Virus record (IMG/VR): IMGVR_UViG_2671180651_000010
DNA: 12,474 bases
From: a virus
Lineage: Duplodnaviria; Heunggongvirae; Uroviricota; Caudoviricetes
Strand: one strand, 5' to 3'
This document shows positions 9,601 through 12,474 of the stretch, piece by piece (the stretch's first letter is position 1; each line of letters starts with the position of its first letter). The position numbers were made by a program.

Positions 9601-12474
9601 GGCTATATCCCAGAAATAAGCCTTGTGAGTAATCATCTCTGTTTTCATGTTTATTGCCATAAATATCATTAAGTATTGGTTGAAACTTCCCTGCATCATC
9701 ATTTGCTAATGATAATGCAAGGCTGTTCGCGATAGCTGAACACGTGGTAAATGACAGAGCAATAAAGACGCCAGCGATGACACTTTTTTTCATATGTTAT
9801 TGTCTTCCTTTTTTTTGAATGGTGCGCGTATTTTACATACATGAGTTTGTAATACAAGGTGCGTAATCAATATGATGTTTTATAATTGCGTGAGACAATT
9901 GATTTATTCTTTTTTTATTGCGGTTTTTATTATCTTTTAATGTAACGGTGTTTTTATTAAGTGTGTTTACGTGGTGTTTTATGTTTTTTATAATTTTTAT
10001 TTTATTAAATTTAAATGCATTAGTAATGGCTATTCTATATAGCAATATAAGAACTGTTACAAAAAAAGGGGGGCAATTACAGGTAGTTATGGATGATGAG
10101 TGAAACAGATATTGGAGAACCGGGGAATGAATGATGTCTGAGTCTTATATATCAGAACTCCTTCGCTGTCGCTGGGGGCTCCTGTGCTTATGTCGTTTCC
10201 CCGATTCGGTTTTGAACGATTACCGAATGTTGAAGAATTATGCCAAAATATAGAAAGGATTTACTGCATGAATACCCAATATTTACAGTATGTTCGTGAG
10301 CAACTTATGGCAGCTACTGCTGACTTGAACGGAGCAACGAAAGGCCAGCTCGAAGCCTGGCAGGAGCATGCACAATTTGATACTGGTACATACAAACGAA
10401 AGAAGCCGCGCATTCTGGATGTGGTAACTGGCAAGATGATTACGCTGGATAATACGCCGACTTCCGGTAAGCAGTCGTACGCAAAAGGTTCATCCATTGC
10501 TTTGGTCAGCCCGGTTGAATTCTCAACCTCTTCATGGCGCCGCGCGGTTTTGTCTCTCGATGAACATCAGAAAGCATGGTTGCTTTGGTGTTACAGCGAA
10601 AGCGTTCGATGGGGGCATCAGGTCACCATAACGCAATGGGCATGGAGCGAGTTTAAAGATTTGTTAAGTAACAGAAAAATTGCAGGTAAGACACTGGATC
10701 GCCTGAAGACGTTAATCTGGCTGGCTGCACAGGATGTGAAGAGCGAACTTGCAGGGCGTGAGGCCTATGAATACCAGACACTGGCATCATTGGTGGGAGT
10801 GACAACAAAAAACTGGTCCGAGACATTTACTGAACGCTGGGTTGCAATGAAGCACATTTTTCTACAGCTTGATAGTGATGCTTTATTGCTTGTGACGAGA
10901 ACACGTTCAAAACAAAAGGCAGCATTTTTACAGCAAAATATTGCAAAACTGGATTAAAAGCCATATACTTCATGCAAATTTGGTATGTTGTAAAAAATGT
11001 ATAAACCCGCTGCCGAGTGGGTTTTTTTTATGCCCTGAGTTGTACTTGTACGGTAAACATGCTGGCTGCTATGTAATAGAGTTTTTTTAGCCTGTAACCT
11101 CTTGACGGCATTGAATTGCTTTTGTTATGAGTTGTAAGCCAATGTTATCATCTTGTATTGGGGTGGTTATGAAGGATGGTGCGCTGCTCAGGAGTTCTTC
11201 ACTTTTTATTGCCTACATGGGATGCCTTGGATGGGGGAGTGCTTATTTCTATGGATGGGGTACTTCTTTTTACTACGGCTTCCCATGGTGGATTGTAGGT
11301 GCAGGTGTTGATGATGTTGCCAGAAGTTTATTTTTTGCAGTTATCGTCATTGCTATATTTCTTATCGGTTGGGGTATTGGTGTTGTATTCTTTTTCGCAG
11401 TGAAAAGAAAACATTCTATGCAAGAGCTAAATGTATTTCGCCTTTATTTTGCTGTGGAATTATTGTTTGTGCCGGCAATTATTGAGTTTTCTATATTGAG
11501 ACAGAAGATTCAGGTACCTCTTTTGCTACTGTCAGCAGCGATTGCGCTGGCGGTTACAATTTCGATAAGATCTTATGGGCGATTTTTATCGGTATCATGC
11601 TTCTATGATAAGCCATTTATAAAAAAACATTTTTTTGAGATTGTGATGATTGCTTTTGTGGCATATTTTTGGCTTTTTTCATTTCTGACAGGATATTACA
11701 AACCACAGTTTAAGAAAGAATATGAAATGATTAATTATAATGATGGTTGGTATTATGTTCTTGCTCGTTATGATAATTGTCTGGTTTTGTCTACTTCTTT
11801 CAATGCAGGTAGTAAAAGGTTTGTCATTTATCAATCAGCACAAGATAAGAATCTTCAGGTTGATATTGTAAGGACCAGAATTTAATTGGCTGCATAAATA
11901 ATATTTTAAGTTGCAAGTTGGCTATTCGTAGGAATAGAACCTTAGGCATGCTGAATGCGTTTTCTGAACATTGTTTTATAAACTGTGTCTGCTTGCTGTT
12001 GTGATCCTGCTTTTAGTGATGGTGATGATGGATTTCACCAGCAGGATAATGTTGGTACTGACTGATGGCGCTCTGGTCTGCGGCATTGTGGTATTGCTGT
12101 GGCCGATGATGAAAGAACAGAATGAATAATTCTTGACTTTTTTGTTTACTGTTTATTAAAAAATCAACCGCATGGTGAATCCTCCTTGGAGGGGCTAAAT
12201 GATCGAGTTTTAAGGGCACGTAGCGAGTTCTGTTTGATCATTGCAGAACTTAGCGGGAGGCGCCATGCGTACATCACTAGTGTTATTCCTTTTATCATTT
12301 TCCTTGTGAGTTCTGGCTGCGCATTGCGCAGCCTTTTTTTTATGACCTGCCACTGGCAGATGGTCATCCTGTGATTTGATTCCGCTTCCGGCTTTTTAAC
12401 TCTGTTCCTCTACACGGGAGAAATTCGATGTCGATTAAACATTACGATGTTGTCAGGGCGGCGTCGCCGTCAGA

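What the first reader, a model, noticed from the sequence alone, without database searches (positions are those of the whole stretch)
10268..10957. 229-aa hypothetical protein following the truncated Q: replacement antiterminator or unrelated regulator?
The gene is on the late-operon strand, has its own RBS and terminator, and sits where a replacement Q module would be expected after Q was disrupted, but it has no zinc-finger Cys cluster and I cannot match it to any Q family from memory. There is also no obvious promoter-plus-early-terminator (pR'/tR') arrangement immediately after it.
Basis: inference. Interest (0 to 1): 0.45.

Follow-up and report, generated by a model that had tools for sequence, protein, structure and literature searches.

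The report
Phage 434's Q82-type late antiterminator
The "hypothetical" 229-aa gene is the well-known Q antiterminator of coliphage 434, 89% identical to phage 82 Q, and it sits directly in front of its own late promoter, pause signal and terminator, so the finding is ordinary and already annotated.

Summary
The window is coliphage 434 (OL657226.1, 99.7% identity). ORF 10268-10957 is real. It is a full-length member of the Q82 antiterminator family: Pfam PF06323 at E=1e-91, and 89% identity over 229/229 residues to phage 82 Q. The depositors label it "Q82-like" and PGAP calls it "bacteriophage antitermination protein Q". The same allele is in 628 of 5,426 complete E. coli genomes.

A 29-codon lambda-Q stub at 8619-8708 precedes an lpxR / ylcG / Q82-type module.

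The late promoter overlaps the 3' end of the gene (TTGCAA at 10941-46, 17 nt, TATACT at 10964-69). A TG-extended -10-like pause element lies at +6..+14. The gene's supposed "own terminator" (11003-11029, +28..+54) is the tR' analogue. This layout aligns with 82 pR' and holds in register in 56 of 60 family loci compared (the other four are only register-shifted).

Verdict: already known, low interest.

The parts
8619..8708 (+). Remnant of a lambda-type Q gene: 29 codons, of which the first 20 aa match lambda Q. This is the left edge of the module replacement.
   Evidence: Translation. 97.8% DNA identity to lambda 43867-43956 ending at window ~8689 (H18). Depositors call it an 'antiterminator-like protein, N-terminal fragment'. 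PGAP marks it as a pseudogene in an O157:H7 prophage.
8834..9793 (-). lpxR-family lipid A deacylase moron on the opposite strand, inserted between the Q remnant and the new Q module. Listed as context only.
   Evidence: Pfam PF09982 at E=6.8e-40. Annotation in OL657226.
10131..10253 (+). ylcG-like small ORF. Homology to the phage 82 orf45-Q module starts at about 10122. This ORF is the crossover point in the 434B recombinant.
   Evidence: H6 (window 10122-10957 matches phage 82 record X92588 positions 1487-2322 at 89.6%)..
10254..10259 (+). Ribosome-binding site (AAAGGA) of the Q gene.
   Evidence: Sequence. The depositors annotate an RBS at the same place.
10268..10957 (+). Q gene of phage 434: a 229-aa Q82-family transcription antiterminator.
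10941..10969 (+). Late promoter pR'. The -35 TTGCAA (10941-46) lies inside the last codons of Q. The 17-nt spacer (10947-63) is the candidate Q-binding element. The -10 is TATACT (10964-69).
   Evidence: Promoter scan. 26 of 29 positions match the 82-type promoter. In fixed register with the stop codon in 56 of 60 family loci. For Q proteins in general the QBE is described as lying between -35 and -10, and a -31..+30 segment of 82 pR' carries the QBE and pause element (PMC4914094).
10976..10976 (+). Inferred transcription start (+1, A).
   Evidence: Set by alignment with the 82-type prophage L003. There this numbering reproduces the published +15-17 GCC and +25 U of 82 pR' (PMC5001585).
10981..10989 (+). 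Sigma70-dependent pause element: TG-extended -10-like TGgTATGTT at +6..+14. The predicted pause is at +25/+26 (11000-11001).
   Evidence: TAnnnT at +9..+14 in 56 of 56 in-register loci and TG at +6/+7 in 51 of 56. The 82 pR' pause element is described in PMC5001585.
11003..11029 (+). Intrinsic terminator (9-bp stem, GCCG loop, T8) at +28..+54. This is the tR' analogue that Q-modified RNA polymerase must read through.
   Evidence: A terminator-like hairpin lies within +16..+125 in 56 of 56 loci, against 4% of shuffled controls. Depositors annotate a terminator here.
11127..11885 (+). First ORF of the Q-dependent late transcript: a membrane protein of unknown function (PHROG 1521). The lysis genes lie about 3.8 kb further on, outside the window.

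Best explanation
The gene encodes the late-gene regulator Q of coliphage 434, a Q82-family antiterminator.

Proposed mechanism, by analogy with phage 82:
1. The gene is transcribed at the end of the delayed-early (nin) operon.
2. The protein binds a Q-binding element in the spacer of the late promoter pR', which overlaps the 3' end of its own gene.
3. RNA polymerase starting at about 10976 retains sigma70. It is held at about +25 by the TG-extended -10-like element at +6..+14.
4. DNA-bound Q, helped by NusA, transfers to the paused complex by displacing sigma region 4 from the beta-flap.
5. The modified polymerase no longer pauses and no longer terminates at the hairpin/T8 terminator at +28..+54, or at later terminators. 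The downstream morons and the lysis and morphogenesis genes are then expressed.
6. Without Q, pR' produces only an RNA of about 50 nt.

Shown here: family membership, near-identity to phage 82 Q, homology of the promoter and pause element to 82 pR', the presence of the terminator, and conservation of the whole layout across the family.

Inferred from work on phage 82 and not tested on the 434 protein: DNA binding, the pause at +25, NusA dependence and read-through.
For: - Identity of the window: phage 434, 99.7% to OL657226.1. The gene is annotated there as 'transcriptional activator/anti-terminator, Q82-like'. [quoted passage not shown]
- Family: PF06323 at E=1.1e-91 and no other Pfam hit. 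PF06323 is named the Q82 family in PMC7171158 and PMC9388147. Identity to phage 82 Q (CAA63332) is 89% over 229/229 residues.
- Promoter: TTGCAA-17-TATACT. 26 of 29 positions match the 82-type promoter, and 45 of 61 match over -31..+30, the segment that carries the QBE and pause element in 82.
- Numbering check: the same register reproduces the published +15-17 GCC and +25 U of 82 pR'.
- Conservation: in 56 of 60 loci from different species the -35, -10 and -10-like element sit in fixed register with the Q stop codon. All 56 have a terminator-like hairpin within +125, against 4% of shuffles. The noncoding stretch from the stop codon to +14 is as conserved (0.83) as the coding 3' end (0.82), and conservation falls to 0.56 after +15.
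- Modularity: in 434B the Q-pR'-lysis block was replaced as one unit by the DLP12 equivalent.
Against: - No experiment on the 434 protein or its promoter was found in the searchable literature.
- The element after the pause signal is GTA in 434 and GCC in 82. Changing GCC to A's shortens the 82 pause 2- to 5-fold, so pausing may be weaker or shifted in 434.
- The terminator starts only 3 nt past the predicted pause site, closer than in the 82-type locus (+50).
- The '82 pR'' sequence used for comparison comes from an E. coli prophage whose Q gene is 100% identical to the phage 82 record, not from a phage 82 record itself.
- The AF2 model has mean pLDDT 71.7, and residues 22-86 are unreliable. 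Foldseek gave no significant PDB hit.
Confidence: 0.93

Rival explanations
1. The protein is a classical activator of late-promoter initiation rather than an antiterminator. This would fit the 'transcriptional activator' half of the depositors' label.
For: The depositors' product name is 'transcriptional activator/anti-terminator'. The model has a C-terminal helix-turn-helix-like region.
Against: The closest relative (89% identical) is phage 82 Q, shown in vitro to act by terminator read-through that depends on the QBE and a sigma70-dependent pause (PMC4914094). The promoter already matches the consensus at 9 of 12 positions with a 17-nt spacer, and it is followed by a terminator in all 56 in-register family loci. 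That layout is the logic of antitermination.
Confidence: 0.03
2. The real late promoter is elsewhere, for example the promoter-like site TTGTTA-18-TATCAT at 11122-11151. In that case 11003-11029 would simply terminate the early operon after Q.
For: The scan lists 11122-11151 with a TG motif. A terminator after the last early gene is plausible in principle.
Against: The 10941-10969 promoter and the +6..+14 pause element are homologous to 82 pR' and conserved in register across 56 of 60 loci, while sequence beyond +15 is not conserved. Promoter-like sites in the region are not more frequent than in shuffles (5 against 3.9), so 11122 has no independent support.
Confidence: 0.03
3. The gene is a decaying or inactive Q copy, like Q genes in many cryptic prophages, and plays no role in 434.
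For: Another Q remnant lies upstream. Family members occur in many prophages, some truncated.
Against: The ORF is full length and collinear with phage 82 Q without gaps. All positions invariant across the family alignment are kept. It is the only intact Q in a plaque-forming phage. The identical allele persists at >=99% in 628 genomes.
Confidence: 0.01

Closest known systems
Phage 82 Q (82Q, CAA63332; type member of Pfam PF06323)
   Same: 229 aa, 89% identical and gap-free. Same upstream ylcG/orf45 neighbour. Same promoter overlapping the stop codon, with 15 of 17 spacer positions identical and a TG-extended -10-like pause element at +6..+14.
   Different: 26 amino-acid substitutions. The pause element is TGgTATGTT in 434 and TGaTATTTT in 82. 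Positions +15-17 are GTA in 434 and GCC in 82. The terminator hairpin starts at +28 in 434 and at about +50 in the 82-type locus. Left flank: lpxR moron and lambda-Q stub in 434, rus in 82.
'Bacteriophage antitermination protein Q' of EHEC and other E. coli prophages (e.g. WP_001097238 in O157:H7 PV15-279)
   Same: 100% identical DNA over 10100-11130. The same ninI / Q-stub / lpxR / ylcG / Q / membrane protein / DUF3927 order.
   Different: Resident prophage rather than the laboratory phage. The downstream cargo before the holin differs.
Lambda Q (Pfam PF03589; PDB 4MO1)
   Different: No detectable sequence similarity. No zinc finger. Lambda pauses at +16/17 and its terminator is at about +194. 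Only a 20-aa stub of this type remains in 434.
AlpA of Pseudomonas aeruginosa (PDB 7XYB) and Q21 (Pfam PF06530; PDB 6JNX)
   Different: 9% sequence identity. Different families and hosts. Whether Q82 forms a closed nozzle is an open question (PMC9388147).
QuuD module of the DLP12 cryptic prophage (present in the 434B mutant)
   Same: It occupies the same slot and substitutes functionally for the Q-pR'-lysis block in 434B.
   Different: 127 aa. By my recollection it is Q21-type, which I did not test here. It has an unrelated sequence and its own promoter.

Membership tests
Q82 family of lambdoid Q antiterminators (Pfam PF06323) | Sequence match to the family profile above the curated threshold, over the full length | tested here: met
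   306.8 bits against a cut-off of 25, residues 4-219 on profile positions 1-216 of 220. PHROG 304 'anti-termination protein Q-like' at E=2e-108.
Q82 family of lambdoid Q antiterminators (Pfam PF06323) | Collinear homology to the experimentally characterised type protein, phage 82 Q | tested here: met
   203 of 229 residues identical, no gaps, E=1e-153.
Q82 family of lambdoid Q antiterminators (Pfam PF06323) | Position: last gene of the delayed-early operon, directly upstream of the late promoter and lysis genes | tested here: met
   Order is ninG, ninI, (Q stub, lpxR), ylcG, Q, then holin, endolysin and spanins downstream. Same order in phage 82 and in prophages.
Q82 family of lambdoid Q antiterminators (Pfam PF06323) | Cognate pR' promoter with a Q-binding element between -35 and -10 | tested here: met
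   This is sequence-level evidence only. TTGCAA-17-TATACT at 10941-10969. The spacer is identical to the 82-type spacer at 15 of 17 positions. Binding was not tested.
Q82 family of lambdoid Q antiterminators (Pfam PF06323) | Sigma70-dependent pause element (-10-like, extended) in the initial transcribed region, with a pause at about +25 | tested here: met
   This is sequence-level evidence only. TGgTATGTT at +6..+14 and T at +25. The register is validated against published 82 pR' landmarks. Positions +15-17 differ (GTA against GCC). Pausing itself was not tested.
Q82 family of lambdoid Q antiterminators (Pfam PF06323) | Intrinsic terminator downstream of pR' that limits late transcription without Q | tested here: met
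   Hairpin plus T8 at 11003-11029 (+28..+54), -15.8 kcal/mol, z = -3.3. Present in 56 of 56 family loci.
Q82 family of lambdoid Q antiterminators (Pfam PF06323) | QBE- and pause-dependent terminator read-through activity, stimulated by NusA | not testable with these tools
   Demonstrated for phage 82 Q (PMC4914094). No data found for the 434 protein.
Lambda Q family (Pfam PF03589) | Profile match and a zinc-finger Cys cluster | tested here: not met
   No PF03589 hit at E<=1. One Cys in the protein. Only the upstream stub at 8619-8708 is of this type.
Q21 family (Pfam PF06530) | Profile match | tested here: not met
   [not shown]

The most novel reading that the evidence does not exclude
The 434-type late control region may be a functionally distinct 'short-leader' variant of the 82 system. 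It is shared by 8 of 56 in-register family loci. The terminator hairpin begins at +28, only 3 nt past the predicted sigma70-dependent pause at +25, and the GC-rich element after the pause signal is replaced by GTA. Q would then have to load and become termination-proof within about 25 nt. The constitutive ~50-nt pR' RNA could also have a regulatory role of its own, as I recall was reported for the StxS RNA of Stx phages (from memory, not checked here).
Probability: 0.12. Interest if true: 0.3.

Novelty: already known. Interest (0 to 1): 0.08.

Why it matters
It matters little beyond correct annotation. The gene is the published, annotated Q of a classical laboratory phage and a close relative of a biochemically studied protein.

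The case is a clean illustration of lambdoid mosaicism. A lambda-type Q was cut down to a 20-aa stub and replaced by a complete ylcG-Q82-pR' cassette. In the 434B mutant the Q-pR'-lysis block was replaced in turn by the DLP12 cassette.

It also shows that Q82-family late promoters can be located mechanically, because they sit in fixed register with the Q stop codon. The one open scientific point concerns the family rather than this locus: no Q82-family structure is in the PDB, and whether Q82 uses a nozzle mechanism is unresolved.

Tried and rejected
- NCBIfam gave no hit for the protein. This is uninformative, because PGAP still names it.
- A sequence search of the PDB found nothing credible (best E=0.12, a bicarbonate transporter). 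No Q82-family structure is deposited.
- I tried to obtain the published 82 pR' template sequences from the supplements of PMC4914094 and PMC5001585. None are held. I used instead a prophage with a 100%-identical Q gene and checked it against landmarks given in the text.
- The alternative 257-aa start at 10184 is rejected. It overlaps ylcG, and homologues start at MNTQYL.
- The depositors annotate a CII site and a 'paQ' -35 on the minus strand at 10933-10946 (TTGCAATATTTTGC). Two TTGCN6TTGC sites occur in the window against 1.08 expected, and one of them is the genuine pRE at 3771-3784. No -10-like hexamer follows at the pRE-type spacing. The second TTGC is not conserved outside the E. coli subgroup. 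I treat it as unproven.
- The promoter-like site at 11122-11151 is rejected as the late promoter for lack of conservation.
- An Rfam scan found no RNA family in the Q/pR' region.

Full report
**Source and observation.** The right third of the window (8600-12474) matches Escherichia phage 434 (OL657226.1) at 99.7% over its full length. The ORF at 10268-10957 (+, 229 aa) exists as described. An AAAGGA ribosome-binding site lies 8 nt upstream. A hairpin plus T8 lies at 11003-11029; the RNA fold is -15.8 kcal/mol, z = -3.3.

The 'truncated Q' is also real. 8619-8708 encodes 29 codons whose first 20 residues match lambda Q. DNA homology to lambda stops at about 8689 (H18). The depositors and PGAP both annotate this stub as an N-terminal antiterminator fragment or pseudogene.

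**What the protein is.** Pfam gives one hit, PF06323 'Phage_antiter_Q'. The score is 306.8 bits against a cut-off of 25, E=1.1e-91, covering the whole profile. PHROG 304 'anti-termination protein Q-like' scores E=2e-108. Two papers name PF06323 the Q82 family, one of three unrelated Q families alongside lambda Q (PF03589) and Q21 (PF06530) (PMC7171158; PMC9388147).

The protein is 89% identical to the phage 82 Q antiterminator of record X92588, 203 of 229 residues with no gaps. The 434 depositors' note reads 'Q82-like'. [quoted passage not shown]

The identical allele with its downstream region is present at >=99% in 628 of 5,426 complete E. coli genomes. PGAP calls it 'bacteriophage antitermination protein Q'. 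One example is an O157:H7 prophage with the same order: ninI, Q stub, lpxR, ylcG, Q.

The family is small and tight. It has about 2,700 clusters at 90% identity, nearly all 229 aa and enterobacterial. It has 173 representatives among 1.84 billion 50%-identity clusters.

A promoter TTGCAA-17-TATACT lies at 10941-10969. Its -35 hexamer is inside the last codons of Q, and its -10 hexamer starts 7 nt after the stop codon.

To compare with phage 82 I used an E. coli prophage (L003) whose Q gene is 100% identical in DNA to the phage 82 record. With +1 placed at the A six bases after the -10 hexamer, L003 reads AAATCTGATATTTTGCCAATGTTGTA. This reproduces three published landmarks of 82 pR' (PMC5001585):
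- an extended -10-like pause element,
- GCC at +15-17,
- U at the +25 pause site.

The same register in 434 puts +1 at 10976 and reads AAATTTGGTATGTTGTAAAAAATGTA. That gives TG at +6/+7, TATGTT at +9..+14, GTA at +15-17 and T at +25.

The -35-to--10 segment matches at 26 of 29 positions and the spacer at 15 of 17. The -31..+30 segment, which carries the QBE and pause element in 82 (PMC4914094), matches at 45 of 61.

The terminator at 11003-11029 therefore occupies +28..+54 of this transcript. It is the tR' analogue, not a private terminator of the Q gene.

**Family-wide check.** I fetched 56 loci from different species, with proteins 54-73% identical to the query. I added 434, the 82-type prophage, a PPompW prophage and Klebsiella phage RothC, giving 60 sequences.
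- In 56 of the 60 the promoter sits in the same register relative to the stop codon. The other four are only register-shifted.
- All 56 have TAnnnT at +9..+14.
- 51 of the 56 have TG at +6/+7.
- All 56 have a terminator-like hairpin with a T-rich tail within +16..+125. Only 4% of shuffled segments do.

The noncoding stretch from the stop codon to +14 is as conserved (0.83) as the coding 3' end (0.82). Conservation drops to 0.56 beyond +15. This fits the mosaic break seen in BLAST: Q-side relatives align only to about +15, and a different phage (2B8) aligns from the terminator onward. Eight of the 56 loci, including 434, carry a 'short' version in which the hairpin starts at or before +35. The others start at +42 to +60.

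**Structure.** An AlphaFold2 model was built from 51 family sequences. Mean pLDDT is 71.7. The helical core (residues 86-228) is confident and residues 22-86 are unreliable.

**Mechanism.** By homology to phage 82, Q binds the QBE in the pR' spacer. It engages the sigma70-containing complex paused at about +25, with stimulation by NusA. The polymerase becomes resistant to pausing and termination, so it reads through the +28..+54 terminator and later ones (PMC4914094, PMC5001585, PMC7171158). Later terminators are annotated at OL657226 positions 43343-43371 and 45673-45709. The lysis genes lie about 3.8 kb downstream.

Family membership and the cis-element layout are shown here. The biochemical steps are inferred from phage 82, and I found no experiment on the 434 protein.

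**Module history.** Lambda-type nin genes run up to codon ~20 of a lambda-type Q. A different segment follows: the lpxR moron on the opposite strand, then a ylcG-Q-pR' cassette. The cassette's homology to phage 82 begins at 10122 (H6).

In the laboratory mutant 434B a crossover inside ylcG replaced the Q, late promoter and lysis block with the DLP12 cryptic-prophage equivalent. Q, its promoter and the lysis genes were thus exchanged together in this case.

**Verdict.** The ORF and its neighbours are as described. The 'replacement antiterminator' reading is correct. The protein belongs to a known, experimentally studied family and is already annotated as such. The pR'/pause/terminator arrangement thought to be absent is present. 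Novelty: already known. Interest: low.

Noticed in passing
window 10933-10946 (-): TTGCAATATTTTGC matches the CII-site consensus TTGCN6TTGC. It overlaps the pR' -35 on the opposite strand, and the depositors annotate it as 'paQ'. The count in the window is not above chance (2 against 1.08 expected, one being the true pRE at 3771-3784). No -10 follows at the pRE-like spacing. It is kept in 82-type and PPompW E. coli loci but not in most other genera.
   Followed up: partly
window 11003-11029, and loci L010, L011, L025, L028, L032, L044, L045: Two classes of tR' exist in the Q82 family. In the 'short' class the AACCCGC..GCGGGTT hairpin starts at +28 to +30, immediately after the +25 pause site. 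In the 'long' class the hairpin starts at +42 to +60. Phage 434 belongs to the short class and the 82-type locus to the long class.
   Followed up: partly
window 8834-9793 (-): An lpxR-family lipid A deacylase moron lies between the lambda-Q stub and the Q82 cassette, transcribed against the early operon. The same arrangement is found in an O157:H7 prophage (L063).
   Followed up: partly
L062 (OL657227.1, 434B), crossover at window ~10240-10253: The 434B mutant carries the DLP12 segment (a 127-aa Q, nmpC::IS5 and lysis genes) in place of the Q82-type cassette. The crossover is in the last codons of ylcG.
   Followed up: yes
[not shown]
   Followed up: partly
window 259-317 (-): Rfam hit to the lambda cIII thermoregulator element (RF01804, 88.5 bits).
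   Followed up: no
window 482-521: A run of 40 N (masked or unknown bases) interrupts the sequence in the early-left region.
   Followed up: no
window 11127-12374 (+): The first ORFs behind tR' are small membrane proteins of unknown function: PHROG 1521, a DUF3927/TciB-like ORF at 11971-12129, and a third ORF at 12186-12374. They are morons placed under Q control, ahead of the lysis genes.
   Followed up: no
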